From a virus (taxonomy: Duplodnaviria > Heunggongvirae > Uroviricota > Caudoviricetes), in the IMG/VR virus record IMGVR_UViG_3300028887_000096, positions 19,562 to 83,561 of that record: DNA of 64,000 nucleotides; one strand, 5' to 3'. Below, one piece after another: positions 851 to 45,814 of this stretch; position 1 is the first letter of the stretch; every line of letters begins with the position of its first letter. Made by a program: the position numbers and the translations under genes. The notes beneath the pieces were generated by a model. The model worked only from the letters and a program-made list of their open reading frames with translations, was not told where the DNA came from and did no database searches.

Positions 851-869
851 GAACGAAAACTAGGTTTTT
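851..869 (-). promoter_or_regulatory. Second motif class CGTAAAAACCTAGTTTTCG (minus orientation)
   Basis: Between the sigma-factor stop and the Hsp20-like gene start. Confidence 0.4.
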
Positions 870-1699
870 ACGATGCCGGTACATTCTTCGAAGAGTTCCT
901 GCAAATTTGCGTTTTTTCGCAGTTTTTCGAGGGCAGCCATCTTGATCGTCCTGATGTGGGCCTTGGAGACCCCCGTGCAGGCCGCGATGTCCTTGGACGT
1001 CATGTCGTAGCCGTTGAAGCCGAAGGACGAACATACCACGCTGAGCTCGCGCTCATCGAGGGTTTCCTTCATCGCGGCGAGCAGGGTTTCCCTGACCGCC
1101 GGGTCCAGGAACGTAGTGTCCACGTCGGCATCCGTCGTGTCGGTGAGTGTGTCCTCTATCGTCACGCTGCCGTCCTCCGTCACCCTGTCGTATGTGGAGC
1201 AGGTGTTGTAGAGCACCGCCTCGGCTTCCTCGCCGAACATGACGCTGCTTGCCGGCTTGCCTTCCTTCTTTGCCTTGATGACGCGCTGGCGCACCTTCGG
1301 CGGGAGGTGTATCGGGTCGGACGTGTCGATGAACTGCTGCATCTGCCAACGGATGTACCATACGGCGTAGCTACCGAACTTCGTCGTCTCGTCGGGGTTG
1401 TATGTGTTGATGGCGGTCATGAGGCCGAGCTTCCCGGCTGCGTAGAAATCCGTCACCGGGAGCTGGTAACGCGCGGCGTAGTCTGTCGCCATGCGGAAAA
1501 CGAATCTCAGGTGGGATTGCATTATGCGGAGCTTGATAGTCTCGCGGTATGAGCGCTTCCTGGTCTTCTTGTATATCCTGAACATTTCGCGCTCGGTGGC
1601 GTCGTCGAGGATTTTGCATGCGTGAAGTTCCGCAAAGATTGTCTTCGGCGTGCCGCCTAGAATGGGCTTTTGCATTGTGCAACCATTCAGTTTTGTCAT
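860..1699 (-). CDS. Sigma-70 family RNA polymerase sigma factor
   Basis: Region 2-like YQLPVTDFYAAGKLGLMTAINTYNP..FGSYAVWYIRWQ and region 4 HTH LSVVCSSFGF..DIAACTGVSKAHIRTIKMAALEKLRK. The ORF track starts at 1732 (TTG). I prefer the ATG at about 1699, which sits directly behind a TTTGTATATTATTCT motif. Confidence 0.75.
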   Translation of the reverse strand: MTKLNGCTMQKPILGGTPKTIFAELHACKILDDATEREMFRIYKKTRKRSYRETIKLRIMQSHLRFVFRMATDYAARYQLPVTDFYAAGKLGLMTAINTYNPDETTKFGSYAVWYIRWQMQQFIDTSDPIHLPPKVRQRVIKAKKEGKPASSVMFGEEAEAVLYNTCSTYDRVTEDGSVTIEDTLTDTTDADVDTTFLDPAVRETLLAAMKETLDERELSVVCSSFGFNGYDMTSKDIAACTGVSKAHIRTIKMAALEKLRKNANLQELFEECTGIVKT

Positions 1700-1716
1700 A
1701 GAATAATATACAAATT
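1700..1716 (-). promoter_or_regulatory. Promoter motif variant TTTGTATATTATTCT immediately upstream of the sigma-factor ATG
   Basis: Member of the TTTG(C/T)TATATT family. Confidence 0.45.
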
Positions 1717-1803
1717 TCAAATATTTTTCCAAAATGCTTGGAATGAATTTTCAAAAAATATATTTTAGTAGCATAATCACTACATAAAACGCGCAGGTGT
1801 AAA

Positions 1804-3144
1804 TTGAGCAAACATGAAACCGCACTATCCGACAAGCGTCTATTGACACTTATCGGGAAACCGACCCCGGGCACTCAATATACAAAGACTGACCTTCCGC
1901 CGGTCGAGAAACTCCTCAAACATTACGGCTATGACAACAACAAGGTATATCCGTATTACGCTGTCTTGAAGAAACTCGGATGGGTGACGGACGCACCTGA
2001 CGCTTTCCGCTCCAACGTGCGCAAGCAATGCAAGCGCCTGAAGGACACCGCGAACGTCGTCGAGACCGAGGGCGAAGACATCCTTTCCAGCATCCACCTC
2101 GCTTCCGAAGGCCAGATTGCGGTCCTCCGCCAGGAACTCGCCAAGAAGCAGAAGGTGCTCGACGAGGCCAAGACGGACAAGTTCATCGCGCAGACGGTCA
2201 TCGAGGCTCTCGAACGCTCAATCAAGACGGTCAAGCCCGCGAACGTCACGATCAATGTCGATAAGCCGGCAAAGAGCAGGCGCGTGAAGGGCAAGTTCTT
2301 CAACATCCTGCCGATTTCCGACGTGCACTACGGCGAAGTGGTGAATGGCGGCACGATTAACGGCATCAACAACTACAACATGGCGATTTCCAAGAAGCGC
2401 CACATGCTGCTCTTCAAGAAGAACTACGAGTTTGCCTCGGTCTATGGCTGCGACGAACTCCACATCTTCATGCTTGGCGACATCTTCTCCGGCAACATCC
2501 ATGCCGAGCTCCGCGAAACGAACGAGACCGTGATTACCGAGTGCGTGACCGACTACTACTCCTTCATCATCGGCCTTATCGACGAATACTCCAAGCTCTA
2601 CAAGAAGATTACGATTTCCTGCGTCGTAGGCAACCATGCCCGCAATACGGAAAAGTTCCAGTTCAAGAACAAGGGTAAGGACTCCTACGAATACATCCTC
2701 TATGCCTTCATGCGCAACTACTACTCGAGCGACCGCTCCCCGAGCAACGTTACCGTCAACCTGACGGAAAGCACGGTGCAGTTCGCCCGCGTCGGCAAGC
2801 AGCTCTGGAAGCTGGAACACGGCGACCGCTACAAGGGCGGTTCCGCGTTCGTGTCCCCGTTCTCCACGGTCGTCCGCGACAATTTCAAGGACAAGGGCAT
2901 GTTCTCCGGCAACGAGGAACAGGACTTCGATGCCGTCATCATGGGCCACTGGCACATCGGTGGCGAGATGGCGCTTTACGGCACGAACACCCCGGTGTAT
3001 CTCAACCCGAGCATCGTTGGCCCAGGCGAATACTCCGTGCATAACTTGCACAGCAGCTACCCGGCATCCAGCTTCGTGTTCGTTACCGACGGCAAGAACG
3101 TCGTCGCCAAGGGGTCGGTTGACCTCATGTGCATCCAGCGATAG
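1804..3144 (+). CDS. Calcineurin-like metallophosphoesterase with unknown N-terminal domain
   Basis: Motifs ISDVHYG, MLGDIFSG, VVGNHARN and GHWH (D-x-H / GD / GNH / GHxH). TTG start per ORF track. A terminator follows. Confidence 0.7.
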   Translation: MSKHETALSDKRLLTLIGKPTPGTQYTKTDLPPVEKLLKHYGYDNNKVYPYYAVLKKLGWVTDAPDAFRSNVRKQCKRLKDTANVVETEGEDILSSIHLASEGQIAVLRQELAKKQKVLDEAKTDKFIAQTVIEALERSIKTVKPANVTINVDKPAKSRRVKGKFFNILPISDVHYGEVVNGGTINGINNYNMAISKKRHMLLFKKNYEFASVYGCDELHIFMLGDIFSGNIHAELRETNETVITECVTDYYSFIIGLIDEYSKLYKKITISCVVGNHARNTEKFQFKNKGKDSYEYILYAFMRNYYSSDRSPSNVTVNLTESTVQFARVGKQLWKLEHGDRYKGGSAFVSPFSTVVRDNFKDKGMFSGNEEQDFDAVIMGHWHIGGEMALYGTNTPVYLNPSIVGPGEYSVHNLHSSYPASSFVFVTDGKNVVAKGSVDLMCIQR

Positions 3145-3159
3145 TATTACGTAGCCATA

Positions 3160-3195
3160 GCAGAACGCCACCCGTAACTGGGTGGCGTTTCTGTT
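3160..3195. terminator. Rho-independent terminator
   Basis: ACGCCACCC-GTAACT-GGGTGGCGT followed by TTCTGTT. Confidence 0.7.
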
Positions 3196-3664
3196 ATCTC
3201 CTGCGGGGCGGAGGAGGTTGTCTCGGGGGCTTGGGTCCGCAGCAGCAACGCGGCGGGACGGGCGCCTGCCTCGGCATGCACCCGCACAGCGGACCGGGCA
3301 TCCAGCCCTTCGGGAGCCACCAGTAGGGGACAGTCGGCCACGGACGGGGTGTCCACGGGCCCCAGGCATGACCCCACCAGAACGGCACCGGGTCTCCGGG
3401 ACGGTGGTTCCAGAAATCGGGGTAGAGGTGGGAAGGCACGTATTCCCACGGGCCCGCCTGCGGTTCACGGGGTTGGCACGGGCCACTCGGCTTCGGCTGC
3501 ATCGGTATGAACAGCGGTCCCTTGGGGATCATGTGGAGGTACGATATGCACGGACGCGTAATCGGAGAAAACGGGTCAGCATATCCCCTTAGCATAGCAT
3601 GATGTCTGCACGGTTCGCACATGTTAGGTCCTTTCACCTCTATCGTATAGAGTTTACAAAACAC
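3194..3664 (-). CDS. Possible small Pro/Trp/Cys-rich protein (uncertain)
   Basis: Only open frame in a 550-bp GC-rich gap. Contains 10 Trp and many Pro (FWWGHAWGPWTPRPWPTVPYWWLPKGW) and a CGC..CCCG tail. No promoter motif upstream. GTG start, or ATG at MCEPC. Confidence 0.3.
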   Translation of the reverse strand: MFCKLYTIEVKGPNMCEPCRHHAMLRGYADPFSPITRPCISYLHMIPKGPLFIPMQPKPSGPCQPREPQAGPWEYVPSHLYPDFWNHRPGDPVPFWWGHAWGPWTPRPWPTVPYWWLPKGWMPGPLCGCMPRQAPVPPRCCCGPKPPRQPPPPRRR

Positions 3665-3672
3665 GTTTCCGA

Positions 3673-3688
3673 TTTTTTGCTATATTTC
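3673..3688 (+). promoter_or_regulatory. Extended -10-like promoter motif TTTTTTGCTATATTTC
   Basis: Ends about 7 nt before the rtcB ATG. Confidence 0.6.
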
Positions 3689-3695
3689 TTGCATT

Positions 3696-4901
3696 ATGAT
3701 AGAAATTCCGGGAAAATACTGTACGGCGAAGGTCTATACCGACAATGTCGAGGAGGCCGCGCTTAAACAGATAATGAACTTGATGAACCAGCCGTTTGCG
3801 GCGGGTTCCAACTGCGCAATCATGCCCGACTGCCACGCGGGCGTGGGTTGCGTTATCGGCCTCACAGCAAAGATTACCGACAAGGTGGTCCCGAACCTGG
3901 TGGGGGTGGATATCGGGTGTTCTATGCTTGTCCTCAAAGTGGACAAGTCGTTCGCGTTCGACCTGAAGCAGGTGGACAAGATTTGGCACCGCGACATCCC
4001 GTCCGGCATGAACCACCGCAAGTCCAAGCACAAGTATGCCGACAAGGCTGACCTCGAAAACATGATAGCCCCGGTGAACGTGGACAAGCTGAAACTGTCC
4101 ATCGGGACACTCGGCGGGGGCAACCACTTCGGCGAAATCAACGTAGATGATGCGGGCAACCATTACATCGTCATCCACTCCGGTTCCCGGCACCTCGGCA
4201 TCGAGGTATGCCGCTATTACCAGGACCTCGCTATCAAGTATCACCGCAACGACCGTGCGGCGATGCAGGATGCCATCAAGCAGCTGAAGAAGGCTGGCCG
4301 CGAGCGCGAAATCGAGGAAACCTTGCAGAAGATGAACGCGGACCGTCCGGCAATCCCGAACGAGCTCGCCTATCTCGAAGGCGCCCTCATGGAAGACTAC
4401 CTGCATGACATGAAGATTGCGCAGGAGTTTGCCATCTGGAACCGCGAGGCAATGATGGACGTGTTGGTTGACGGCCTGGGTATCAAGCCAAGGTATGTGC
4501 TGGATAAGTGGTGTACCATGCACAATTACGTTGACTTGGAACATAGAATTTTGCGCAAGGGAGCAATCTCATTGCAGAAAGATGAGATTGCACTAATTCC
4601 GATGAACATGAGGGATGGTTCCCTTATCGTCCGCGGCAAGGGCAACTCCGACTGGAACTGTTCCGGTCCGCACGGTGCCGGCCGTCTCATGTCCCGTTCC
4701 AAGGCCAAGGAGACGCTCAGGATGGAAGACTTCAAGGCTTCCATGGAAGGCATTTATACGACCTGCGTTTCGACCGGGACGATTGACGAGAGCCCGATGG
4801 CCTACAAGCCGTTCGACGAAATCATGCGCAACATCGAGCCGACCGCCGACATCGTCGAGCGCATCCGCCCGATCTACAACTTCAAGGCGTCGGAGGGATA
4901 A
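3696..4901 (+). CDS. rtcB: RNA-splicing ligase RtcB
   Basis: PDCHAGVGCVIG, GGGNHFGE, HSGSRHLG, HNY and GPHGAGR motifs typical of RtcB. The promoter motif ends 7 nt before the ATG. Confidence 0.85.
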   Translation: MIEIPGKYCTAKVYTDNVEEAALKQIMNLMNQPFAAGSNCAIMPDCHAGVGCVIGLTAKITDKVVPNLVGVDIGCSMLVLKVDKSFAFDLKQVDKIWHRDIPSGMNHRKSKHKYADKADLENMIAPVNVDKLKLSIGTLGGGNHFGEINVDDAGNHYIVIHSGSRHLGIEVCRYYQDLAIKYHRNDRAAMQDAIKQLKKAGREREIEETLQKMNADRPAIPNELAYLEGALMEDYLHDMKIAQEFAIWNREAMMDVLVDGLGIKPRYVLDKWCTMHNYVDLEHRILRKGAISLQKDEIALIPMNMRDGSLIVRGKGNSDWNCSGPHGAGRLMSRSKAKETLRMEDFKASMEGIYTTCVSTGTIDESPMAYKPFDEIMRNIEPTADIVERIRPIYNFKASEG

Positions 4902-5354
4902 ATGCCGAGGGCCAAGAAACCGAAGGAAAGTTTCGAGATTGTCCTGTTCAACAGCAAGCCCACCGAGGGCGGTCATTTCTATGACCTCGAGACGCTGCAA
5001 CGTATCGCCGACGACATCAACGCCGGCAAGGGGCTTGCGTTGGAGGAAATCGACCCGATTGCGCGGCAGGTCGAGGGGATTTCCGAAACCGAGGTCTGGA
5101 AGGAACGCATCATGGCCGATGCGGTGTCCTGCCGTCTCGAAGATGGCGTCTTGTGGGTCACGTTCGAGATACGCACCACCAAGTATGGGAAGCGCTTCAA
5201 GGCCGCGCTGGACACGCATGGCATCCGCGGCCTTTATTTCTTTCCCGTCGGCTATACACGCGAGCCGCTCGGTGAGAAGGGCGTAATCAAGAACTACTGC
5301 CTGTGCTACGTTTCGTTCGAGCCCCGGAACGCAATCAAGTTACCCAATTCGTAA
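4902..5354 (+). CDS. Hypothetical protein, translationally coupled to rtcB (TAAATG)
   Basis: Protein-like composition and GC3 codons. No archease signature seen. Confidence 0.6.
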   Translation: MPRAKKPKESFEIVLFNSKPTEGGHFYDLETLQRIADDINAGKGLALEEIDPIARQVEGISETEVWKERIMADAVSCRLEDGVLWVTFEIRTTKYGKRFKAALDTHGIRGLYFFPVGYTREPLGEKGVIKNYCLCYVSFEPRNAIKLPNS

Positions 5355-5380
5355 ATTTTCATTAACAAAAGGATCAAAAC

Positions 5381-5938
5381 ATGGAAGAAACAGAAAAATC
5401 CCTCGCTGCGTTGATCGTTACGCTCAAGTCCAGCAGCGGCGTGTCCATCAAGGACACTACCCTCACGAAGTTCAACTTCAAGGTAAACGGTTCCAGCGAC
5501 GCGAAGGAACTCGCCAAGGTGCTTGAAAACAAGTTCGGTGTCGAGGATGCCTACTCGATGGTGACATCCCGCTGCCAGTTCAAGCCGGCCAAGCTCCCTC
5601 TCGAAGACTATAAGATTTACCTTGACGTCACGTTCGGGACCGAGCTCGAAACTGTCGCCACGTTCAGCGCACAGCTTCGCAGCGTGAGCTTCCGCCACAC
5701 GGTCAAGGATGTCGGCGATGGCGTGGAAGATACCGTTGACGCCACGATGGAACTCTTGAAGAACGAAGACGGCGTGGAAGACAGCAAGGTCCGCCACTTC
5801 CTCAACTTCAAGGAAACCAACCCGCAGACCGGCAAGAAGATCCTCGTCCCGATGAAGTTCGAGTTCTGGAAGCGCGACAGCAATCCGATCGTCTATACCG
5901 AAATCGCGGAAGTGGCGCCCGAAGACGAAAGCCTCTAA
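5381..5938 (+). CDS. Hypothetical protein
   Basis: K/E/D-rich, GC3 codons. The opposite-strand ORF 5306..5950 is rejected. Confidence 0.65.
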   Translation: MEETEKSLAALIVTLKSSSGVSIKDTTLTKFNFKVNGSSDAKELAKVLENKFGVEDAYSMVTSRCQFKPAKLPLEDYKIYLDVTFGTELETVATFSAQLRSVSFRHTVKDVGDGVEDTVDATMELLKNEDGVEDSKVRHFLNFKETNPQTGKKILVPMKFEFWKRDSNPIVYTEIAEVAPEDESL

Positions 5939-5976
5939 GGATTTCATCATGCTACGGCCCGGCAGGCGACTGCCGG

Positions 5977-5991
5977 GTTTTGCTATATTTC
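5977..5991 (+). promoter_or_regulatory. Promoter motif TTTTGCTATATTTC
   Basis: 42 nt upstream of the 6033 ATG. Confidence 0.55.
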
Positions 5992-6032
5992 AATGTGCGG
6001 CACATAGTCGCACATTATTTTTATAGGTATTT

Positions 6033-7937
6033 ATGGACTACAAGAGAATATATGACATCTTCGTTGCCGACAGAAAGGCACACCCGACTACGGAACTGTA
6101 TTCCAGCCTCCACCACATCATCCCGCTCGGGGACGGTGGCAAGGACTGCGAGGAGAACCTGGTTCGCCTTTCCATCCGCGACCACCAGTTCGCCCACAAA
6201 CTGATTGACCGCTTTACCGGGCGCAAGGCATGTCCCGAGTTCACCAGGTTTACTTCAAAGCGTCAGATTGCCGCAATGCAGAAGAACGGCATCGACCCGA
6301 AACGCGCAAAGCGTGCCAAGGCCGGTGTCGGAAAGTTCCGCCTGTGGCTGAATGATACGGCCAAGACCCTTGCCGATGACTTTTCCCAGCAGATCTGCGA
6401 AAGGGCCGCTGAGGCTAACCCGGGAATGTCCGTGGTTCCGTTCATTACCAAGCAGTCCTTCCCGATCTGGCTGTCCGCGCTTAACGGGCTGAGCAAGCAC
6501 TTCGTCGTCAGTACCCAGAGCGACGAAAACCAGGCGGTCGGCCCGGGCATCAAGATGAGGGCGGGCGAAGTCATCCATCTCGGGATGGAGAGCGAAATCG
6601 AGCTCGTGGTGAAGAATGTCGGGGAATATCTCAAAGGCAACCTCATGATGGCGATTACCGACGGCGTGGCCCGCGCATACGCATTTACCCGCGCCACCGA
6701 GAAGGACCGGGAAATGTTCATCAACACGGCCACCCGCATGATGCGCATTACCCTCGGCCAGCTGAAGGCCACTTACCGCGTAATCGAAATCCGCCATGTG
6801 TATGAAGTCGCCGACCGCTATGTCACCCGAGTGGTGAATGCCGCAATCATCGACCGCGGGGTGACCGAGTATATCGACATGCTCACCCATCCGGTCCTGA
6901 CGGAAAATGTTGATAAGGTGTTCGGAATGTTGGCAACCCTTGCTGACGAGGCTCCCGTCGATCCGGTCCTCGGTAACACGATGCACCTTATCGTAAAATA
7001 CGCGCTCGACAAGTATGTTGACCCGGGCTATTCGATGTCCGGCGACCTGCGCAAGGGCATCGTCTATTGCGCATGCAACGACCTTGCGAGAAAACTCGCA
7101 ACGAAAAAAGACGTACTCGCCACGCATGACCTGAATAAGCTCACGTTCCACGCATGGCGTGAGGTGTTCGGTGTCCTGTTCGGCAGCATCGCCGACGCAG
7201 AAAAGTCCGCGCCCGGCGTCCCGGACTTGCAGGCGGCATATCGCACCTGCACCGACGAAGGTCTCCATGACGACATCATGGCCGGCCTCCCGGTCGCCAA
7301 TGAGCGTATTACCGCATGTCTCGTCGGGATGGTGGCTGCGAAGCTGCGCCCGCATGTGGATGACGGGATGCTTACCCAGGAAGAGTTTGACTTTGCAATC
7401 GAACCGCGCAGGGTAATGTCTGTCGTCATGCCGGAACTGCAGACCTACACGAAGACGCTGAAAGATGCCAAGACCAGGCTCCCGCTTGACCAGTTTGCCA
7501 AGAAGTGCCTGTTCGGGTATGCAACGTCATATTCCCGCAAGATTATCCTCTACATGCTCGGCAAGGATGTGACCGAGGAGACCTATGGCCGCATTGCCGG
7601 TCTTGACGAGAAGTATATCACTGCCACGTTTACGGCGAAGTGCCGTCTCAATGTCGGCATGGTCACTGCAGCCGTCGAGCCCGGGGCATGTTTCCAGCTT
7701 CCGGTCCCGTTCCATGCGATGATCAAGAAGGCAATCGACGACATTAGCATGTTTACTCAGATTTCTAAGGCCAAGGCCATGCTTCTCAAATCGGAAATCT
7801 CCGCGGAACTCGGTAAGCGTATCATGGAAGACGTTTCCCTCCGTCGCCCGACGAGCGTCCAGTTCAACAATGTCTTTAAAGAAATCCGCCTGATTACCGC
7901 CGAGCATGTCCAGAAGGTTCTCGGGGGTGACAAATGA
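6033..7937 (+). CDS. Large protein with N-terminal HNH nuclease motif
   Basis: HHIIPLGDGGKDCEENLVRLSIRDHQFAH near the N-terminus, followed by an unknown domain of about 550 aa. Promoter motif 42 nt upstream. Confidence 0.7.
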   Translation: MDYKRIYDIFVADRKAHPTTELYSSLHHIIPLGDGGKDCEENLVRLSIRDHQFAHKLIDRFTGRKACPEFTRFTSKRQIAAMQKNGIDPKRAKRAKAGVGKFRLWLNDTAKTLADDFSQQICERAAEANPGMSVVPFITKQSFPIWLSALNGLSKHFVVSTQSDENQAVGPGIKMRAGEVIHLGMESEIELVVKNVGEYLKGNLMMAITDGVARAYAFTRATEKDREMFINTATRMMRITLGQLKATYRVIEIRHVYEVADRYVTRVVNAAIIDRGVTEYIDMLTHPVLTENVDKVFGMLATLADEAPVDPVLGNTMHLIVKYALDKYVDPGYSMSGDLRKGIVYCACNDLARKLATKKDVLATHDLNKLTFHAWREVFGVLFGSIADAEKSAPGVPDLQAAYRTCTDEGLHDDIMAGLPVANERITACLVGMVAAKLRPHVDDGMLTQEEFDFAIEPRRVMSVVMPELQTYTKTLKDAKTRLPLDQFAKKCLFGYATSYSRKIILYMLGKDVTEETYGRIAGLDEKYITATFTAKCRLNVGMVTAAVEPGACFQLPVPFHAMIKKAIDDISMFTQISKAKAMLLKSEISAELGKRIMEDVSLRRPTSVQFNNVFKEIRLITAEHVQKVLGGDK

Positions 7938-8479
7938 CGCTTTCCGAGCGATATATAAGCGAGAAGTATGGCGCCGGTGCGCTTGCGGACTTCCAGAAGT
8001 TCGTTGCCGAGGAAAAGGCAAAGAACCAGAAGGCCAGGAGGCAGCAGCGGCTGGCCACGCGCAATCCGCATGTCCTCTTGCTGCAGGTCCGGCTGGATTA
8101 CGATTGCTATGACGGCGAAGGCGATGAGCATAGCTATTATGACGAGCGTAGCGTCGCGAGTTACCTGGATGATGCGCTTGGCCTGAACATTATCGAGGCC
8201 ACTGACGATACGGACGAGGACGAAAAGTTTTTCCGCATCGAGCAGGCAGCGAAATACTTGTCGAAATGCCGCGGTGTGCAGTATACGGACGATGACATTA
8301 TCGAGCGCATCATCAGGGTCATCCGGTATGGCAGCGAACGCGCCAACGAGGAAATGGCCCGTGGCGCGGTTTCCCGTGACTATCGGGGGATAAGTAACAA
8401 GGATCTATATCCGAACGAGTTCATGGAACACTATTTCAGGGGATGCCGTTACAGGGTGTCCGATTACAGGAGGTTCTAG
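7934..8479 (+). CDS. Hypothetical acidic protein
   Basis: ATGA overlap with the upstream gene. Protein-like composition. Confidence 0.6.
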   Translation: MTLSERYISEKYGAGALADFQKFVAEEKAKNQKARRQQRLATRNPHVLLLQVRLDYDCYDGEGDEHSYYDERSVASYLDDALGLNIIEATDDTDEDEKFFRIEQAAKYLSKCRGVQYTDDDIIERIIRVIRYGSERANEEMARGAVSRDYRGISNKDLYPNEFMEHYFRGCRYRVSDYRRF

Positions 8480-8480
8480 T

Positions 8481-8858
8481 ATGGATTGGGAAATTACCGG
8501 CTATGACAGGTTCTGTGGGGAGATTTCCAGCCCGCCGATCGGCGATGGCGCTGAACCGCAGAAGACCCCGCACGAGATAATCTCGGAAACGTTCATGTTC
8601 TACGGGGAAATGAACCCGGCGAAGATGAACGGTTTCTGCCGTGACCGCATGCGCACGGTATGTTTCAATTCGTTGCGGGCCGCACTCGGACTGTCCCCCA
8701 GCATCCAGGGCGACCTTGTCATATCGAAGCTGGTCGGCGCCTTCTACGGCCATTACGGCAGCGTGTCGGACTTCGACATGATCGTGTCGCTCTATGACAT
8801 GCCGCTGAAAAAGACCGTCGAATACATCAACGGCCTTGATCCCACTAAGGTAATGTAG
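8481..8858 (+). CDS. Hypothetical protein
   Basis: ORF ends 1 nt before the tRNA array. Confidence 0.6.
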   Translation: MDWEITGYDRFCGEISSPPIGDGAEPQKTPHEIISETFMFYGEMNPAKMNGFCRDRMRTVCFNSLRAALGLSPSIQGDLVISKLVGAFYGHYGSVSDFDMIVSLYDMPLKKTVEYINGLDPTKVM

Positions 8859-8932
8859 AGCACTCGGAAGGGCTCGAACCTTCGCATGGGGGCTTTGCAG
8901 GCCCCTGCCTTGACCAACTTGGCTACGAGTGC
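8859..8932 (-). tRNA. tRNA-Cys(GCA)
   Basis: Cloverleaf by eye. Acceptor GCACTCG/CGAGTGC, anticodon loop CTGCAAA, T-arm GGTTCGAGCCC. Confidence 0.75.
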
Positions 8933-8943
8933 ATAAGATGTAG

Positions 8944-9025
8944 TCCCTTCGGGGAGAATCGAACTCCCACGCCTTTCAGCACAAGGGTTTGAACCGAGCG
9001 CGTCTACCAGTTCCGCCACGAAGGG
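8944..9025 (-). tRNA. Class II tRNA, Leu(CAA)-like with imperfect anticodon stem (possible pseudo-tRNA)
   Basis: Acceptor CCCTTCG/CGAAGGG, T-arm GGGAGTTCGATTCTCCC, loop TTCAAAC, but 2 mismatches in the anticodon stem. Confidence 0.5.
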
Positions 9026-9028
9026 GTA

Positions 9029-9099
9029 TTGGGCGGTGACGGCTCGAACGTCATCCGAGGGGTTCAAAGCCCCTAGTGCTACCATTACACCACGGCCCA
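9029..9099 (-). tRNA. tRNA-Gln(TTG)
   Basis: Anticodon arm AGGGG-CTTTGAA-CCCCT, T-arm TGACGTTCGAGCCGTCA. Confidence 0.7.
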
Positions 9100-9109
9100 A
9101 AAATTTTAG

Positions 9110-9193
9110 TCGGCAGGGCGGGACTCGAACCCGCACGTCCTTTCGGACACCGCATCCTGAGTGCGGCGCGGCTACCAATTACGCCACCTGCCG
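9110..9193 (-). tRNA. tRNA-Leu(CAG)
   Basis: Class II. Loop CTCAGGA, variable arm TGTCCGAAAGGACG, T-arm GCGGGTTCGAGTCCCGC. Confidence 0.8.
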
Positions 9194-9198
9194 ATTAG

Positions 9199-9280
9199 TC
9201 GGCCATGAGGGCATCGAACCCACACGTCTTGCGACAGACGATCTTAAATCGTCCGCGTCTGCCAATTCCGCCAATAGCCG
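9199..9280 (-). tRNA. tRNA-Leu(TAA)
   Basis: Class II. Anticodon arm GACGA-TTTAAGA-TCGTC. Confidence 0.7.
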
Positions 9281-9284
9281 ATTA

Positions 9285-9368
9285 TCTCGTCGGTGGGACT
9301 CGAACCCACACGCCCTTTCGGGCACAGGCCCCTCAAACCTGCGCGTCTACCAATTCCGCCACGACGAG
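9285..9368 (-). tRNA. tRNA-Leu(GAG)
   Basis: Class II. Acceptor CTCGTCG/CGACGAG, loop TTGAGGG, variable arm TGCCCGAAAGGGCG. Confidence 0.8.
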
Positions 9369-9374
9369 GAATAG

Positions 9375-9449
9375 GGTGACCGACGGGACTCGAACCCGCA
9401 ACGGCTGCCTTCACAGGGCAGGGCTCCACCAGTTGAGCTACGGCGCACC
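9375..9449 (-). tRNA. tRNA-His(GTG) with G-1
   Basis: Loop CTGTGAA. Extra 5' G pairs with the C73 discriminator. One bulged nucleotide in the acceptor stem. Confidence 0.65.
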
Positions 9450-9623
9450 ATAAGTGCCGATGTTTTTATTGTAGGAGAATCGGAGCTCCGGTAACTTGAT
9501 GACAACAATGGCCCGGTAATAGCAAGCCAAGCACGGTCAGGGAAACGACCGCGAGGAGCAGGAGCCAGAATGTGATGTTGCCGCGTACCATGAGGATACT
9601 CCGTTAGTAAGAAAAATTCGTAG

Positions 9624-9712
9624 AGGAGACAGCAGGATTCGAACCTGCGGGGGCTTTGAGGGCCCCACGGCGTTAGCACCGCCGCGCCTTAAACCAGCTC
9701 GGCCATGTCTCC
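9624..9712 (-). tRNA. tRNA-Ser(GCT)
   Basis: Class II. Acceptor GGAGACA/TGTCTCC, loop GTGCTAA, T-arm GCAGGTTCGAATCCTGC. Confidence 0.7.
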
Positions 9713-9722
9713 AAATTTTTAG

Positions 9723-9811
9723 TGGGCAGGACAGGATTCGAACCTGTGATGTTTACCCAAAGGGACCTGATTTACAGTCAGGCTGCTTCAAACCAGCTTG
9801 CATACCTACCC
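9723..9811 (-). tRNA. tRNA-Tyr(GTA)
   Basis: Class II. Anticodon arm CCTGA-CTGTAAA-TCAGG, T-arm ACAGGTTCGAATCCTGT. Confidence 0.75.
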
Positions 9812-9823
9812 AAAATGTCTTCG

Positions 9824-9907
9824 CGGAAGCGGAGGGAGTCGAACCCCCAAGCCCTTGCGGAACCACGGTTTTCAAGACCGCTTGAGTCGCCAGTCTCTTG
9901 CGCTTCC
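9824..9907 (-). tRNA. tRNA-Ser(TGA)
   Basis: Class II. Acceptor GGAAGCG/CGCTTCC, loop CTTGAAA, T-arm GGGGGTTCGACTCCCTC. D-arm atypical. Confidence 0.6.
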
Positions 9908-9911
9908 ATAG

Positions 9912-9984
9912 CTCCACCTCCTGGACTCGAACCAGGGACCATCCGATTAACAGTCGGGCGCTCTACCAACTGAGCTAAGGTGGA
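9912..9984 (-). tRNA. tRNA-Asn(GTT)
   Basis: Acceptor TCCACCT/AGGTGGA, loop CTGTTAA. Confidence 0.8.
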
Positions 9985-10000
9985 ATAAAAATCACGTCCA

Positions 10001-10798
10001 TTACGGTGTTGATTGGTTGGGATTTGCCCATATCCCACATTTATACGGGCCATATTTTGCCTCCCAGGCGGCAATCCGGGATTTCAATTCTTCTAGCGTA
10101 ATGGAGCATTTGGAACCCTTGGAAGTATTTTTGGTTTGCAAAATCAGTTTGCAATTCGCGGGATGCTCGATAATCGTCGCGGGCACTTTATTGATGTAGC
10201 CCGCCTTTACGCTATACATGTGGTCGCGTGATACCCCGCCTGGGTTGTTGCCTTTATTGACGGGGCTGTACCACCCATGTTTCTTTATCAATTCAAAATC
10301 AAACTCGTCTGGATAATCGGCAAGGTTGAATTTAAATTTGCATGCGTTCCTGTAGTTGATGAACTCGGCGGAATACGCATTTGCACGTTGCCGTTTTCTG
10401 TACTCAATCCGGCATTGGTCCGAACAATATACACGGGTGTGCAATTTATGATGTATTTCAGCGCCGCAGTTTTTACAGCGCGTTACCGGAACCGAAATCC
10501 TGGTTCCCGCAACGATGGTTACTCTTTTGAGTTTTTCGCTAAGTTTTTGCCTTAACTCAGGTGTTCGTTCTCGACCATTGGCACAGCTGCGTGAACAGTG
10601 GAGAGGCCATCTGCCTTTCTCATAGTCGATATTTCGTATCGCTTTTGTAAATTCTTTATCGCATTTGGTGCATGTAAATGTATGTTCAGTTTTTGTTTGG
10701 TTATATTCTTTTATGCGGTGCATACTCAACTTGGCCTTTTCACGGCCTAGTTCAATATTTCGCCGATTTGCGGCTATTCGTTTTTCAGTGATAACCAT
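10001..10798 (-). CDS. HNH homing endonuclease with N-terminal zinc-ribbon motifs, inserted in the tRNA array
   Basis: C-terminal SRDHMYSVKAGY...HPANCKLILQTKNTSKG (HNH-like D-H/N/N-K). Several CxxC pairs in the N-terminus. Local GC is about 42%, against 58% for the surrounding DNA. GGAGA RBS 8 nt before the ATG. Confidence 0.7.
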   Translation of the reverse strand: MVITEKRIAANRRNIELGREKAKLSMHRIKEYNQTKTEHTFTCTKCDKEFTKAIRNIDYEKGRWPLHCSRSCANGRERTPELRQKLSEKLKRVTIVAGTRISVPVTRCKNCGAEIHHKLHTRVYCSDQCRIEYRKRQRANAYSAEFINYRNACKFKFNLADYPDEFDFELIKKHGWYSPVNKGNNPGGVSRDHMYSVKAGYINKVPATIIEHPANCKLILQTKNTSKGSKCSITLEELKSRIAAWEAKYGPYKCGIWANPNQSTP

Positions 10799-10816
10799 AA
10801 GAATATCTCCATTTAG

Positions 10817-10889
10817 TGCCAGGAACTGGACTCGAACCAGTATCTGAGGCTTTTCAGACCCCCGCCGTGACCATCTTGGCTATCCTGGC
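10817..10889 (-). tRNA. tRNA-Phe(GAA)
   Basis: Acceptor GCCAGGA/TCCTGGC, loop CTGAAAA. Confidence 0.75.
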
Positions 10890-10900
10890 ATAAAGTTTAG

Positions 10901-10973
10901 TAGCCCCTGCCGGATTCGAACCGACGTTCCTTGGCTGAAAACCAACTGTCCTAGTCCACTAGACGAAGGGGCC
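10901..10973 (-). tRNA. tRNA-Glu(TTC)
   Basis: D-arm GTCTAGTGGACTAGGAC, loop TTTTCAG, T-arm CGGTTCGAATCCG. Confidence 0.7.
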
Positions 10974-10976
10974 ATA

Positions 10977-11053
10977 TAGGCTATACTGGGATCGAACCAG
11001 TGACCTCGGGATTCGTAGTCCCGCGCTCTAAAATCCGGCTGAGCTAATAGCCT
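10977..11053 (-). tRNA. tRNA-Arg(ACG)
   Basis: Acceptor AGGCTAT/ATAGCCT, anticodon arm CGGGA-CTACGAA-TCCCG. Confidence 0.75.
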
Positions 11054-11061
11054 GAAAGTAA

Positions 11062-11134
11062 TGGACCCGGTGGGTAACGATCCCATCACAGTAACTGTGC
11101 CACAGTCACTCGCCACCATGGATCATGCGAGCCC
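11062..11134 (-). tRNA. tRNA-Ala(GGC), unusual D-arm and T-loop
   Basis: G3:U70 in the acceptor GGGCTCG/CGGGTCC, loop GTGGCAC. T-loop ATCGTTA is noncanonical. Confidence 0.55.
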
Positions 11135-11193
11135 AAAATAAAATCAACACCGTAATGTCAATATGCTGAATGGTTTCTCGAACCATTCGTGTT

Positions 11194-11267
11194 CGTGGAC
11201 CGCTAGGGGCTCGAACCCTACACACCTACCTTGCGAAGGTAGATCGCCACCGGAGGAACATGGCAGC
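11194..11267 (-). tRNA. tRNA-Ala(CGC), unusual D-arm
   Basis: G3:U70 in the acceptor GGGCTGC/GCGGTCC, anticodon arm CTACC-TTCGCAA-GGTAG, T-arm TAGGGTTCGAGCCCCTA. Confidence 0.6.
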
Positions 11268-11283
11268 CCAAATTTGTTTTTCG

Positions 11284-11358
11284 TGGACCCGGTGGGGCTC
11301 GAACCCACCACAACCGGCTTGCAAAGCCAGCTCGCCTCCAAGCGGATCATGCGAGCCC
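11284..11358 (-). tRNA. tRNA-Ala(TGC), unusual D-arm
   Basis: G3:U70 in the acceptor, anticodon arm CTGGC-TTTGCAA-GCCGG, T-arm GTGGGTTCGAGCCCCAC. Shares 5' half and flanking spacer with the other Ala genes. Confidence 0.6.
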
Positions 11359-11380
11359 AAATGTTTGCCGCCTAACGAAA

Positions 11381-11415
11381 GAACCCCGGTTCAGTTTTCC
11401 TGTACCGGGGTTCTC
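11381..11415. terminator. Bidirectional rho-independent terminator
   Basis: GAACCCCGGT...ACCGGGGTTC hairpin with T-rich flank. Confidence 0.6.
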
Positions 11416-11670
11416 TTCGAGTAAGGCTAAGAAGAAGAGGTTATCACCCGGTCAGGCCACTTTCGGCATAGCATGCGAAATGACGGCTGGCATTGCTGGA
11501 TGCCAAGCGTTCATTCGAGAGATATGCTGAAAATAGTTGCTTCATGGGTTTTTCCTTTTCTGCCATTAAGTTTAGCAATTTATTTTTCGTCCGGCAAGGG
11601 TTTTTGACCCCATTTTGAAGAAATAATAAATAAATAAGTTTTGTGTAAGTTTCCCGTAAGAAAATGACCC

Positions 11671-12225
11671 CTACATGAAGAAATCTGCATACATTTCGGT
11701 GGTCTGTTCGTCCTCGGAAAGGGTTGCGCGGAACTCCGCGAGGCGGCTGCTGAGGTAGTTGAACTCCTTCTGGTACCTGTCGTAGCGCTCGTAGTCCTTG
11801 TCGCTCTTCAAGTTGTTGCCGACAATCGTCATGTTGTCTTCGAGGTCGGCCAGCTTGATCTTCGTCGTGATGAGGTTCTCGCCGACCTTCTTGATGTAGT
11901 CGTCCCTGCCGAGGCTCTTGCGCCTGGTGAGGATTTCTACGCATTTCCACACGACCTCCGGGAAATAGAGCATGAGGTCCGATGTGGTCATGTTCCCTTC
12001 CTCTATGACATCGTGGAGATAGGCGATGGCGGTGATTGAGTCGTCCCCATACTGGCGGTCAAGCGCATTGGCCACCCGGGTCGGGTGCTGCACGTATTCC
12101 TGGCCGCTCTTGTCCAGCTGGCCCTCGTGCGCGAACGTTGCGAACTCGCATGCCTTCTGGACCATGCTTCCGTCGAACCTGTTCATTCGTTTAAGGAAAG
12201 CCTTGATTTCGTCGCGTGAACGCAT
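11671..12225 (-). CDS. HD-domain hydrolase, SpoT/Mesh1-like (p)ppGpp hydrolase candidate
   Basis: FAHEGQLDKSGQEYVQHP..VA, AIAYLHDVIEEG and IKLADLEDNM match HD motifs of the RelA/SpoT hydrolase domain. Confidence 0.65.
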   Translation of the reverse strand: MRSRDEIKAFLKRMNRFDGSMVQKACEFATFAHEGQLDKSGQEYVQHPTRVANALDRQYGDDSITAIAYLHDVIEEGNMTTSDLMLYFPEVVWKCVEILTRRKSLGRDDYIKKVGENLITTKIKLADLEDNMTIVGNNLKSDKDYERYDRYQKEFNYLSSRLAEFRATLSEDEQTTEMYADFFM

Positions 12226-12261: not shown

Positions 12262-12300
12262 TGGGTCCCGGCGGGACTCTTGAGTCTAAAAATAGGTTTT
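12262..12300 (-). terminator. Rho-independent terminator ending the minus-strand operon
   Basis: GGGTCCCGGCGGGACTC hairpin followed by a T-tract on the minus strand. Confidence 0.5.
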
Positions 12301-12312
12301 TTGATACGAAAA
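12283..12312 (-). promoter_or_regulatory. Second motif class variant TTTTTCGTATCAAAAAACCTATTTTTAG
   Basis: Upstream of the HD-hydrolase gene. Confidence 0.3.
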
Positions 12313-45560: not shown

Positions 45561-45656
45561 TTCGCTGGTAAGCGCCGGGAGCCGTCGGACGGACAACTCG
45601 AGTAAGGTCGCCCGCTCCTCCCGGCGCCGGGACAGTCAGCACATGTCCCACCCCCT

Positions 45657-45728
45657 AGCCCTCGGGTGTGACTGGTAGCATCGCAGACTCCAAATCTGCA
45701 GGATGGCGTTCGAAGCGTCAGGGGGCTG
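45657..45728 (+). tRNA. tRNA-Trp(CCA)
   Basis: Acceptor AGCCCTC/GGGGGCT, anticodon arm GCAGA-CTCCAAA-TCTGC, T-arm TGGCGTTCGAAGCGTCA. Confidence 0.6.
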
Positions 45729-45732
45729 TTAC

Positions 45733-45805
45733 GCATCTGTAGCTCAGTTGGTAGAGCGCATCCTTGCCATGGATGAGGTCACCGGATCGAAGCCGGCCAG
45801 ATGCT
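45733..45805 (+). tRNA. tRNA-Gly(GCC)
   Basis: D-arm GCTCAGTTGGTAGAGC, loop TTGCCAT. Confidence 0.75.
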
Positions 45806-45814
45806 CGAAATTAC

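What the first reader, a model, noticed from the sequence alone, without database searches (positions are those of the whole stretch)
1804..12225. Candidate tRNA-repair and anti-defence module: RtcB ligase with adjacent metallophosphoesterase, next to the tRNA array and an HD (p)ppGpp-hydrolase-like gene
RtcB joins 2',3'-cyclic-phosphate or 3'-phosphate ends to 5'-OH ends. Those are the products of anticodon nucleases such as PrrC, RloC and colicin-like tRNases. A calcineurin-type phosphoesterase directly upstream could do end-healing, as in the phosphatase domain of bacterial Pnkp. Together with a large private tRNA set, this looks like a counter-measure against host tRNA-cleaving defences. 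The nearby HD hydrolase with SpoT/Mesh1 motifs could blunt alarmone-based responses.
Basis: inference. Interest (0 to 1): 0.65.

Follow-up and report, generated by a model that had tools for sequence, protein, structure and literature searches.

The report
Phage RtcB, tRNA arrays, unrelated neighbours
A huge gut or rumen phage carries an intact RNA-repair ligase (RtcB), about 30 tRNA genes and an alarmone-type hydrolase, which is a known combination in large phages, but the neighbouring phosphoesterase looks like a DNA exonuclease in a separate transcription unit, not a tRNA end-healing partner.

Summary

- **RtcB (3696-4901):** It keeps every metal-binding residue and the guanylylated histidine.
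- **tRNAs:** The neighbouring array holds 17 tRNA genes, not 13. A second array of 13 lies at 45.6-46.7 kb.
- **HD protein (11671-12225, minus strand):** It is a RelA/SpoT-type small alarmone hydrolase. Its closest solved relative is Aph1, a (p)ppApp-specific hydrolase, not a (p)ppGpp hydrolase.
- **Metallophosphoesterase (1804-3144):** It has an intact active site, but it belongs to PHROG 284 ("exonuclease"). Its model matches the PolD DP1 proofreading exonuclease best, then SbcD/Mre11, not Pnkp-like phosphatases.
- **No shared operon:** A strong hairpin and a conserved opposite-strand ORF separate the phosphoesterase from RtcB, and it lacks RtcB's promoter motif.
- **Weak linkage elsewhere:** Only 1 of 80 family loci has RtcB nearby. 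In relatives the phosphoesterase abuts DNA polymerase A or DNA ligase.
- **Chemistry:** RtcB needs no end-healing, and a 3'-phosphatase would destroy its substrate.

The gene order is kept only in close relatives, which are megaphage contigs of up to 473 kb. tRNAs plus RtcB plus an HD alarmone hydrolase is already described for jumbo phages. Verdict: new members of known kinds; the single-module reading is not supported.

The parts
860..1732 (-). Sigma-70-family factor gene, transcribed divergently from the phosphoesterase gene. It is context only and not part of any repair function.
   Evidence: Pfam Sigma70_r2 and Sigma70_r4, and PHROG 351 at E = 3e-34. The same position is kept in L001 and L113.
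1804..3144 (+). Metallophosphoesterase, 446 aa. It has a helical N-terminal region (about residues 1-160) and a calcineurin-fold domain. It is DP1/Mre11-like and a member of PHROG 284 ("exonuclease").
3163..3190 (+). Terminator-like hairpin (12 pairs, 7 of them G-C) just after the phosphoesterase stop codon. It could act for both converging genes.
   Evidence: It is the longest-stem terminator-like site found in 1-13000. The sequence was read directly.
3194..3622 (-). Conserved Pro/Trp/Cys-rich ORF of about 142 aa, of unknown function. It lies between the phosphoesterase and RtcB on the opposite strand.
   Evidence: The same reading frame is conserved in L001 and L113, with indels that keep the frame. 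No family hit.
3676..3688 (+). Promoter-like motif TTTGCTATATTTC, ending 7 nt before the RtcB ATG.
   Evidence: There are 20 copies in the window against 0.68 expected. The motif is conserved upstream of RtcB in L001 and L113.
3696..4901 (+). RtcB RNA ligase (joins 3'-P or 2',3'-cyclic-P ends to 5'-OH ends), 401 aa.
   Evidence: PF01139 at E = 3.6e-63. D45, H47, D72, C75, N143, H144, H161, H276, H326 and R330 are invariant in the alignment with E. coli RtcB and phage RtcBs. In that alignment D72 and C75 pair with E. coli D75 and C78.
4902..5938 (+). Two ORFs that appear to be co-transcribed with RtcB: orf150 (4902-5354) and orf185 (5381-5938). Both are of unknown function.
6033..8858 (+). Three ORFs between the RtcB unit and the tRNAs. 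They are a 634-aa protein with an N-terminal HNH motif (own copy of the promoter motif at 5979-5991), a 181-aa ORF and a 125-aa ORF. All are of unknown function.
   Evidence: PHROG 655 matches residues 1-62 only. No Pfam, NCBIfam, PADLOC or PDB match.
8858..11358 (-). tRNA array 1, with 17 genes: Cys, Leu x4, Gln, His, Ser x2, Tyr, Asn, Phe, Glu, Arg and Ala x3. It is interrupted by an endonuclease gene.
   Evidence: ARAGORN finds 13. Rfam adds His at 9380-9443. Relaxed ARAGORN adds Ala(UGC) 11283-11358, Ala(CGC) 11195-11269 and Ala(GGC) 11062-11134, each with G3:U70. Homologous Ala genes are called in L001.
10001..10798 (-). Free-standing HNH-like endonuclease gene in a lower-GC island inside the tRNA array.
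   Evidence: PHROG 23051 at E = 1e-36 and PHROG 1271 (HNH) at E = 4e-8. GC is 0.48 for 10-12 kb against about 0.56 elsewhere. L001 has a different endonuclease (DUF559) at the same spot.
11671..12225 (-). Small alarmone hydrolase (HD_4), Aph1-like. It lies upstream of tRNA array 1 on the same strand.
   Evidence: PF13328 at E = 5e-8. PDB 7SMG, the (p)ppApp hydrolase Aph1, at E = 4.5e-23. H47, H71, D72, E75, D127 and N131 are conserved. The Aph1 signature is partly kept.
12288..12312 (-). A second promoter-like motif (TTTTCGTA-N6-AACCTAnTTTT), 63 nt upstream of the HD gene. It belongs to a different class from the RtcB motif.
   Evidence: Three copies in the window against 0.01 expected. The core is conserved upstream of HD in L001 and L113.
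45656..46732 (+). tRNA array 2, with 13 genes. It is outside the finding's coordinates but belongs to the same private tRNA set.
   Evidence: ARAGORN and Rfam.

Best explanation
The region is not one repair module. It is a stretch of the non-structural part of a very large phage whose promoters look like those of Bacteroidota. It holds at least four independent units.

1. **DP1/Mre11-like metallophosphoesterase.** It most likely acts as a 3'-5' exonuclease or phosphodiesterase on DNA during replication or repair. This is inferred from fold and family context.
2. **RtcB-orf150-orf185 unit with its own promoter.** The ligase reseals RNA with 3'-phosphate or 2',3'-cyclic-phosphate and 5'-OH ends. 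Such ends arise when metal-independent ribotoxins and anticodon nucleases cut tRNA or rRNA. The enzyme identity is shown. The in vivo substrate is inferred.
3. **Seventeen tRNA genes here, plus 13 more 35 kb away.** They supply or replace host tRNAs.
4. **Aph1-like small alarmone hydrolase.** It has a different promoter class and lies upstream of the tRNA array on the same strand. It most likely removes the 3'-pyrophosphate from adenosine alarmones ((p)ppApp) made by toxic alarmone synthetases of hosts or rival phages. The family assignment is shown. The substrate is inferred.

RtcB, the tRNAs and the hydrolase plausibly all protect translation. They do so as separate, known kinds of phage counter-measures, not as one co-regulated heal-and-seal pathway.
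For: **RtcB**
- Pfam and PHROG hits are strong and all catalytic residues are present.
- RtcB occurs in 641 phage records.

**Phosphoesterase**
- PHROG 284 "exonuclease" at E = 1e-41.
- In Bacteroides phage BU2-1 it lies between an ssDNA-binding protein and DNA polymerase A.
- In L006 (72% identical) it is followed one base later by an NAD-dependent DNA ligase.
- A Pif1 helicase lies within 3-8 kb in L001, L003, L007, L113, L114 and L115.
- Bxb1 gp47 is a precedent: a stand-alone DP1/Mre11-like phage phosphoesterase required for DNA replication (PMC11795197).

**Separate transcription units**
- A hairpin lies at 3163-3190.
- A conserved opposite-strand ORF lies in the gap.
- The motif TTTGCTATATTTC has 20 copies against 0.68 expected. 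It precedes RtcB and the 634-aa gene but not the phosphoesterase or HD genes.
- A different motif precedes HD. Both assignments are conserved in L001 and L113.

**Synteny**
- The full gene order is found only in L001 and L113.
- It is absent from L112 and L006, whose phosphoesterases are closer than L113's.
- HD relatives at 46-57% identity sit beside NrdD/NrdG with no tRNAs within 8 kb.

**HD protein**
- Best PDB hit is Aph1.
- D38 is invariant at the position where (p)ppGpp hydrolases have the guanine-binding Arg.

**Concept already published** for jumbo phages.
Against: - No biochemical data exist for any of these proteins.
- In more distant megaphage relatives the phosphoesterase repeatedly lies within a few genes of RNA and translation genes. 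These are RlaP in L003, L007, L114 and L115; an Rnl-type RNA ligase in L003 and L007; IF3 in L003 and L115; and Pth2 in L114. An RNA-end role therefore cannot be excluded.
- DP1/Mre11-type enzymes are defined here by fold only. Sequence identity to DP1 is 14-17%, and no OB domain or polymerase partner was found.
- The window's HD protein has lost two of the six Aph1 signature residues (D116 to T133, R119 to G136). Its HDxxED motif reads HDVIEE. Its specificity may therefore differ from Aph1's.
- Whether the hairpins really terminate transcription is untested.
- Only 64 kb of a genome of perhaps 300-470 kb was visible.
Confidence: 0.6

Rival explanations
1. The phosphoesterase heals broken tRNA ends, as the Pnkp phosphatase does, and RtcB seals them. 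Together with the tRNAs they form one anti-anticodon-nuclease module.
For: - The two genes are 551 bp apart in the window, L001 and L113.
- One unrelated small phage contig (L081) also has a family member about 900 bp from an RtcB gene.
- The phosphoesterase active site is intact.
Against: - RtcB uses 3'-P or 2',3'-cyclic-P ends directly, by established mechanism (E. coli and P. horikoshii RtcB). A 3'-phosphatase would remove its substrate.
- The fold is nearest DP1, SbcD and Mre11, not PPP or lambda-phosphatase-type enzymes.
- The N-terminal region is helical, with no kinase or P-loop hit.
- A hairpin and an antisense ORF lie between the genes, and the two genes have different promoter signatures.
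- Only 1 of 80 family loci has RtcB, and 0 of 24 RtcB loci have the phosphoesterase.
- L112 and L006, which carry closer phosphoesterase homologues, lack RtcB within 10 kb.
Confidence: 0.07
2. The phosphoesterase works on RNA 3' ends as part of a variable RNA-repair island in this megaphage lineage. It might trim damaged ends, or remove nucleotides added by RlaP. The ligase partner would have been swapped over time between Rnl plus RlaP and RtcB.
For: - RlaP lies one gene away in L114 and 3-6 kb away in L003, L007 and L115.
- An Rnl-type ligase and IF3 lie immediately upstream in L003 and L007.
- Pth2 lies two genes downstream in L114.
- RtcB is nearby in the window, L001 and L113.
- The RlaP preprint notes an unsolved incompatibility between RlaP's product ends and RtcB. 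[quoted passage not shown]
Against: - These loci are syntenic relatives, so they are not independent observations.
- The same neighbourhoods also hold Pif1, DNA ligase, ThyX, PhoH and ClpP.
- In L003 and L007 RlaP is directly coupled to a different, 226-aa Metallophos protein.
- Outside the megaphages the family sits beside DNA polymerase A or packaging genes.
Confidence: 0.13
3. RtcB serves the phage's own RNA processing or another substrate, rather than countering host anticodon nucleases. Possible roles are rRNA repair of the PrfH/RtcB2 type, ligation of processed phage transcripts, or 3'-phosphate DNA end capping.
For: - RtcB is co-transcribed with two proteins of unknown function, not with tRNA genes.
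- The gene converges on the tRNA array, 4 kb away.
- It does not reach any NCBIfam equivalog cut-off.
- Only 5 of 24 related RtcB loci have tRNAs within 10 kb.
Against: - No PrfH, archease or RtcA partner is present.
- No intron-bearing or split tRNA was reported.
- Co-occurrence with large tRNA sets fits the published counter-defence model.
Confidence: 0.15

Closest known systems
RtcB RNA ligases of large phages (Bacillus phage Bcp1 and SPO1-like phages, Listeria P100-like phages, mycobacteriophages, jumbo phages), and E. coli RtcB
   Same: Identity is 52% to Bcp1 RtcB and 35% to E. coli RtcB. All metal ligands and the His nucleophile are conserved. RtcB co-occurring with many phage tRNAs is described by Iyer et al. 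2021.
   Different: No RtcA, RtcR, archease or PrfH partner is present. Instead it is coupled to two lineage-specific ORFs. One of them has a gp21 prohead-protease-like fold.
PolD small subunit DP1 (3'-5' proofreading exonuclease), and Mre11/SbcD
   Different: Sequence identity is only 14-17%. No OB-fold domain is predicted, and no DP2 partner was found. No SbcC/Rad50 gene lies within 10 kb in the window or in nine relatives. A helical N-terminal region of about 160 aa is specific to PHROG 284.
Mycobacteriophage Bxb1 gp47 (metallophosphoesterase; recombination directionality factor required for DNA replication)
   Same: It is also a stand-alone phage calcineurin-fold protein whose structure resembles DP1/Mre11. 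It lies among replication genes and shows weak exonuclease activity (PMC11795197).
   Different: No detectable sequence relationship exists beyond the GNH motif (hhalign E = 0.056). gp47 has 255 aa against 446 aa here. No serine integrase lies nearby.
Bacterial Pnkp phosphatase domain (Pnkp/Hen1 heal-and-seal system)
   Same: It belongs to the same broad metallophosphoesterase superfamily.
Aph1 (p)ppApp hydrolase of a Bacteroides caccae prophage (PDB 7SMG), and other small alarmone hydrolases
   Same: Aph1 is the best PDB hit (E = 4.5e-23, about 38% identity). The HD catalytic residues are conserved. D24 and Y134 of the Aph1 signature are kept, and R96 and K133 are conservatively replaced.
   Different: D116 is replaced by Thr and R119 by Gly in the window's subclade, while relatives at 46-64% identity keep both. 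The protein has extra N- and C-terminal segments of about 20-25 aa. There is no adjacent (p)ppApp synthetase toxin. It lies upstream of a tRNA array.

Membership tests
RtcB (PF01139) | A domain match above the curated cut-off. | tested here: met
   214.7 bits against a cut-off of 27. PHROG 1075 at E = 6e-132.
RtcB (PF01139) | Metal-binding Asp, Cys and His residues and the Asn-His motif. These are E. coli D75, C78, N167, H168, H185 and H281, and P. horikoshii D95, C98, N202, H203, H234 and H329. The residue numbers are from my own knowledge of the literature. | tested here: met
   D72, C75, N143, H144, H161 and H276 are invariant in the alignment with E. coli RtcB. D72 and C75 align to E. coli D75 and C78, and to P. 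horikoshii D95 and C98.
RtcB (PF01139) | The histidine that forms the covalent GMP adduct (E. coli H337, P. horikoshii H404). | tested here: met
   H326 in the motif GPHGAGR is invariant.
RtcB (PF01139) | GTP- and Mn-dependent ligation of 3'-P or 2',3'-cyclic-P ends to 5'-OH RNA ends. | not testable with these tools
   This needs an enzyme assay.
Pnkp-type end-healing phosphatase | A phosphatase domain of the lambda-phosphatase/PPP branch. | tested here: not met
   [not shown]
Pnkp-type end-healing phosphatase | A fused P-loop 5'-kinase and ligase domains, and a Hen1 partner. | tested here: not met
   The N-terminal 160 aa are helical with no Pfam or NCBIfam hit. No Hen1-like hit was found among the neighbours examined.
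Mre11/SbcD nuclease | The binuclear metallophosphoesterase motifs. | tested here: met
   D173, H175, GD225-226, GNH276-278, H339 and H382/H384 are invariant.
Mre11/SbcD nuclease | A partner SbcC/Rad50 ABC ATPase, normally adjacent. | tested here: not met
   None was found among the ORFs scanned in the 64-kb window. None lies within 10 kb of the homologue in L001, L003, L112, L113, L114 or L115. The rest of the genome was not visible.
PolD DP1-like exonuclease | The phosphodiesterase domain is the closest structural match. | tested here: met
   [not shown]
PolD DP1-like exonuclease | An OB-fold domain and a DP2 catalytic partner. | tested here: not met
   The model shows only helices before the phosphoesterase domain. 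No DP2-like gene was seen in any neighbourhood.
PHROG 284 ("exonuclease") | A full-length profile match. | tested here: met
   E = 1e-41, covering residues 74-433 against profile positions 39-386 of 398. At least 578 related loci exist in IMG/VR.
RelA/SpoT-type hydrolase (HD_4, small alarmone hydrolase) | The HD_4 domain with the His, HD, ED and Asp/Asn catalytic residues. | tested here: met
   PF13328 scores 33.3 bits against a cut-off of 27.2. H47, H71, D72, E75, D127 and N131 are invariant. The second acidic residue is Glu (HDVIEE) in this subclade.
(p)ppGpp-specific hydrolase (Rel/SpoT/Mesh1) | Guanine-stacking Arg residues (TtRel R43 and R44). | tested here: not met
   The aligned positions are D38 and K39, as in Aph1 (D24 and K25).
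Aph1 (p)ppApp hydrolase family | The signature residues D24, R96, D116, R119, K133 and Y134 (PMC10083569). | tested here: inconclusive
   D38 and Y151 are identical. K113 and R150 are conservative replacements. T133 and G136 replace D116 and R119. Relatives P0095-P0103 keep D116 and R119.

The most novel reading that the evidence does not exclude
The Aph1-like hydrolase may be part of the tRNA unit. It lies upstream of the 17-gene tRNA array on the same strand in this subclade. It has lost two adenine-pocket residues of Aph1. It could remove the 3'-pyrophosphate that CapRel- or FaRel2-type toxic alarmone synthetases add to the terminal adenosine of tRNA. With RtcB and the private tRNAs, this would give the phage three independent ways to keep tRNAs usable. 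Some small alarmone hydrolases (MESH1, ATfaRel) are already known to reverse this tRNA modification (bioRxiv 10.1101/2021.04.30.441581). No phage enzyme has been shown to do so, as far as the papers I read show.
Probability: 0.1. Interest if true: 0.65.

Novelty: new member of a known kind. Interest (0 to 1): 0.28.

Why it matters
The main value is corrective. Gene adjacency plus a superfamily label ("calcineurin-type phosphoesterase") suggested a heal-and-seal pathway. Fold, family context, transcription-unit structure and RtcB chemistry do not support that pathway.

What remains is a clear example of a known strategy in an uncultured megaphage that probably infects Bacteroidota. The strategy is a large tRNA set, an RNA ligase and an alarmone-type hydrolase.

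Two parts merit experiments:
- An Aph1-like hydrolase with an altered specificity pocket, placed next to a tRNA array.
- A widespread phage family of DP1-like phosphoesterases (PHROG 284) that has no characterised member I could identify.

Tried and rejected
- **Nucleotide search of the region against 50,697 phage genomes.** Only two short tRNA matches came back, so there is no close cultured relative.
- **PDB sequence search with the phosphoesterase.** Nothing significant was found. Structure prediction was needed instead.
- **A conserved partner gene downstream of the phosphoesterase.**
  - The 259-aa gene in L001 and the 254-aa gene in L003 are unrelated to each other.
  - Both are absent from the window.
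  - The L001 gene looks like a DNA methyltransferase by its EPSAGNG and NPPF motifs. That is my own reading; Pfam found nothing.
- **orf150 as an archease or PrfH analogue.**
  - There was no Pfam, PHROG or NCBIfam hit.
  - Its family has only about 33 representative clusters.
  - Its fold is T4 gp21/assemblin-like, so it was rejected as a known RtcB cofactor.
- **orf185 and the 634-aa HNH protein.** No PDB or family matches beyond the HNH motif.
- **Rnl, RlaP, the small Metallophos protein and Pif1 of relatives.** None is present in the window.
- **PADLOC scan of ten proteins.** Nothing relevant.
- **Sequence relationship to Bxb1 gp47.** None detected.
- **NCBIfam RtcB equivalogs, including the release-factor-H-coupled type.** All scored below their cut-offs.

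Full report
**What is in the sequence**

The window has about 56% GC, and many spurious antisense ORFs appear. I called genes with a self-trained codon model and checked them against family libraries. From left to right the genes are:

| Coordinates | Strand | Feature |
|---|---|---|
| 860-1732 | - | sigma-70-family gene |
| 1804-3144 | + | 446-aa metallophosphoesterase |
| 3145-3695 | | 551-bp gap |
| 3696-4901 | + | RtcB |
| 4902-5354 | + | orf150 |
| 5381-5938 | + | orf185 |
| 6033-7937 | + | 634-aa protein with an N-terminal HNH motif |
| 7934-8858 | + | two small ORFs |
| 8858-11358 | - | tRNA array, interrupted by an HNH-like endonuclease gene at 10001-10798 |
| 11671-12225 | - | HD_4 protein |

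A second array of 13 tRNAs lies at 45656-46732.

The region has no close cultured relative. Homologues of the phosphoesterase and the HD protein lie on metagenomic contigs of 250-475 kb. The source is therefore a megaphage.

**RtcB**

PF01139 scores 214.7 bits and PHROG 1075 gives E = 6e-132. I aligned the protein with E. coli RtcB (fetched), two phage RtcBs and the L001 orthologue. D45, H47, D72, C75, N143, H144, H161, H276, H326 and R330 are invariant in that alignment.

D72 and C75 pair with E. coli D75 and C78, and with P. horikoshii D95 and C98. H326 lies in GPHGAGR, the motif that carries the guanylylated histidine.

RtcB is common in phages. It occurs in 641 of 50,697 records, and Bacillus phage Bcp1 is the nearest at 52% identity.

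**The phosphoesterase**

All binuclear-metal motifs are invariant across 30 homologues that range down to 21% identity. Pfam barely detects the protein. PHROG 284 ("exonuclease") matches nearly full length at E = 1e-41.

An AlphaFold2 model (pLDDT 83.5) was compared with solved structures by two methods.
- Foldseek's nine best hits are all DP1.

The N-terminal 160 residues are helical, with no kinase or P-loop match.

The family is large, with at least 578 loci in IMG/VR. Its neighbours vary.
- **Bacteroides phage BU2-1:** it sits between an ssDNA-binding protein and DNA polymerase A. Pfam sees no exonuclease domain in that polymerase.
- **Staphylococcus phage SEP9 and many IMG/VR contigs:** it sits beside terminase, portal and head genes.
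- **L006 (72% identical):** its stop codon is followed one base later by an NAD-dependent DNA ligase.

A published precedent exists for a stand-alone DP1/Mre11-like phage phosphoesterase that acts in DNA replication. This is Bxb1 gp47 (PMC11795197). It shows no sequence similarity to the window protein beyond the GNH motif.

**Is it linked to RtcB?**

Several lines say it is not.
- **Hairpin:** just after its stop codon lies the longest-stem terminator-like hairpin found in the first 13 kb (3163-3190).
- **Antisense ORF:** the rest of the gap encodes a Pro/Trp/Cys-rich ORF on the opposite strand. The frame is kept in L001 and L113 despite indels.
- **Promoter motif:** the 13-mer TTTGCTATATTTC occurs 20 times in the window against 0.68 expected.
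  - It ends 7 nt before the RtcB start codon.
  - It recurs before the 634-aa gene.
  - It is absent upstream of the phosphoesterase and the HD gene.
- **Second motif:** the HD gene is preceded by a different motif (three copies against 0.01 expected).
- **Conservation:** both promoter assignments hold in L001 and L113.
- **Host hint:** in distant relatives the 13-mer reads TTTGCTATATTTG. This contains the Bacteroidota -7 consensus TAnnTTTG (my own knowledge of that consensus), so the host is probably in that phylum.

Across the family, RtcB lies within 10 kb in only 1 of 80 loci (L081). None of 24 RtcB loci carries the phosphoesterase.

The window's gene order recurs in L001 (phosphoesterase 80% identical) and L113 (65%). 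It does not recur in L112 (75%) or L006 (72%).

RtcB ligates 2',3'-cyclic-phosphate or 3'-phosphate ends directly, by established mechanism. A healing phosphatase is therefore unnecessary and would remove the substrate.

**A caveat that keeps an RNA role alive**

In more distant megaphage relatives the phosphoesterase sits among RNA and translation genes.
- L003 and L007: an Rnl-type RNA ligase, IF3 and RlaP.
- L114: RlaP and Pth2.
- L115: RlaP and IF3.

The loci are syntenic and also contain Pif1, DNA ligase, ThyX, PhoH and ClpP. In L003 and L007 RlaP is coupled to a different, small Metallophos protein. I treat an RNA-end function as a minority rival (about 0.13).

**RtcB's real neighbours**

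orf150 starts at the RtcB stop codon, and orf185 follows. Both are conserved in L001 and L113.

**The tRNAs**

Default ARAGORN finds 13 genes in the first array. Rfam adds a tRNA-His at 9380-9443.

Relaxed ARAGORN finds three tandem tRNA-Ala genes with anticodons UGC, CGC and GGC at 11062-11358. Each has G3:U70 but a weak D arm. Their L001 homologues are called at default settings.

The first array therefore has 17 genes, and the window has 30.

**The HD protein**

It is an RSH-type hydrolase. Its best solved relative is Aph1 (7SMG, E = 4.5e-23). The best (p)ppGpp enzyme reaches only 1e-12.

Ahmad et al. 2023 define six residues that mark (p)ppApp specificity. In the window protein they map as follows:

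| Aph1 residue | Window residue | Status |
|---|---|---|
| D24 | D38 | kept; invariant in all 18 aligned sequences |
| R96 | K113 | conservative replacement |
| D116 | T133 | lost |
| R119 | G136 | lost |
| K133 | R150 | conservative replacement |
| Y134 | Y151 | kept |

D24 replaces the guanine-stacking Arg of Rel enzymes. Relatives at 46-64% identity keep D116 and R119.

The enzyme is thus Aph1-like with an altered pocket. (p)ppApp is the most likely substrate, but this is not certain.

Its position next to tRNAs is specific to the subclade. Relatives sit next to NrdD/NrdG with no tRNAs within 8 kb.

**Comparison with what is known**

Iyer et al. 2021 describe jumbo phages that combine many tRNAs, RtcB or ATP-grasp RNA ligases, and an "HD-alarmone" phosphodiesterase as counter-defence. 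HD_4 proteins occur in 229 phage records. The counter-defence idea is therefore not new, and this window adds new members of these families.

**Verdict**

It is not supported for the phosphoesterase or for a single integrated module.

The most novel reading still open is that the altered Aph1-like enzyme removes pyrophosphate from tRNA CCA ends (probability about 0.1). It rests on the known activity of other small alarmone hydrolases.

Noticed in passing
window 3676-3688, 5979-5991, 14059, 18060, 20500, 27737, 30946, 37506, 39122, 45000, 45050, 46739, 50604, 60489 and others: The 13-mer TTTGCTATATTTC occurs 20 times (12 exact) against 0.68 expected, nearly always just upstream of a gene start and sometimes only 4-7 nt before the ATG. 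In distant relatives it reads TTTGCTATATTTG, which contains the Bacteroidota -7 promoter consensus TAnnTTTG. This suggests a Bacteroidota host and near-leaderless mRNAs.
   Followed up: partly
window 12288-12312 (-), 35965-35989 (-), 55632-55656 (+): A second promoter-like motif (TTTTCGTA-N6-AACCTAnTTTT) lies upstream of the HD gene and, in more degenerate form (2-3 mismatches), at two other sites, one about 40 nt upstream of a terminase-like gene. There are three copies against 0.01 expected. Its core is conserved upstream of HD in L001 and L113.
   Followed up: partly
window 3194-3622 (-): A conserved ORF of about 142 aa, very rich in Pro, Trp and Cys (for example PWEYVPSHLYPDFWNHRPGDPVP...WWLPKGWMP), lies between the phosphoesterase and RtcB. 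It is conserved in L001 and L113 and matches no family. Gene callers missed it on the relatives.
   Followed up: partly
window 11062-11358 (-): Three tandem tRNA-Ala genes (UGC, CGC, GGC) have G3:U70 but degenerate D arms. They fall below default ARAGORN and Rfam tRNA thresholds. One gives a weak hit to the tRNA-like domain of tmRNA.
   Followed up: yes
window 10001-10798 (-); L001 19062-19751: A free-standing HNH-like endonuclease gene lies in a lower-GC island inside the tRNA array. L001 carries a different endonuclease (DUF559) at the same place. The array therefore seems to be a landing site for mobile endonucleases.
   Followed up: partly
[not shown]
   Followed up: yes
window 46756-47595 (+): A NIF3/DUF34 family gene (E = 7e-41) starts 24 nt after the last tRNA of the second array and has its own copy of the promoter motif.
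   Followed up: no
L001 11338-12117; L113 11338-12111: The closest syntenic relatives carry an extra gene of about 258 aa right after the phosphoesterase. The window lacks it: about 800 bp there correspond to about 90 bp here. Its EPSAGNG and NPPF motifs suggest a DNA methyltransferase (my own reading), though Pfam found nothing.
   Followed up: partly
L003 14258-16106; L007; L114; L115: Distant megaphage relatives carry RlaP (PF10127). In L003 and L007 it is coupled to a 226-aa Metallophos protein and lies near an Rnl-type RNA ligase with an N-terminal OB domain. This is a different RNA-repair kit from the window's RtcB.
   Followed up: partly
window 24993-30900: An anaerobic ribonucleotide reductase NrdD gene (891 aa) is followed by a stretch of about 2 kb at 46% GC (about 27.7-29.7 kb). 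My gene caller found no ORF there, although a copy of the promoter motif sits at 27737.
   Followed up: no
window 55694-56731 (+): The terminase-large-subunit-like ORF has only 345 aa and mainly matches the ATPase part of the profiles. The gene may be split or interrupted.
   Followed up: no
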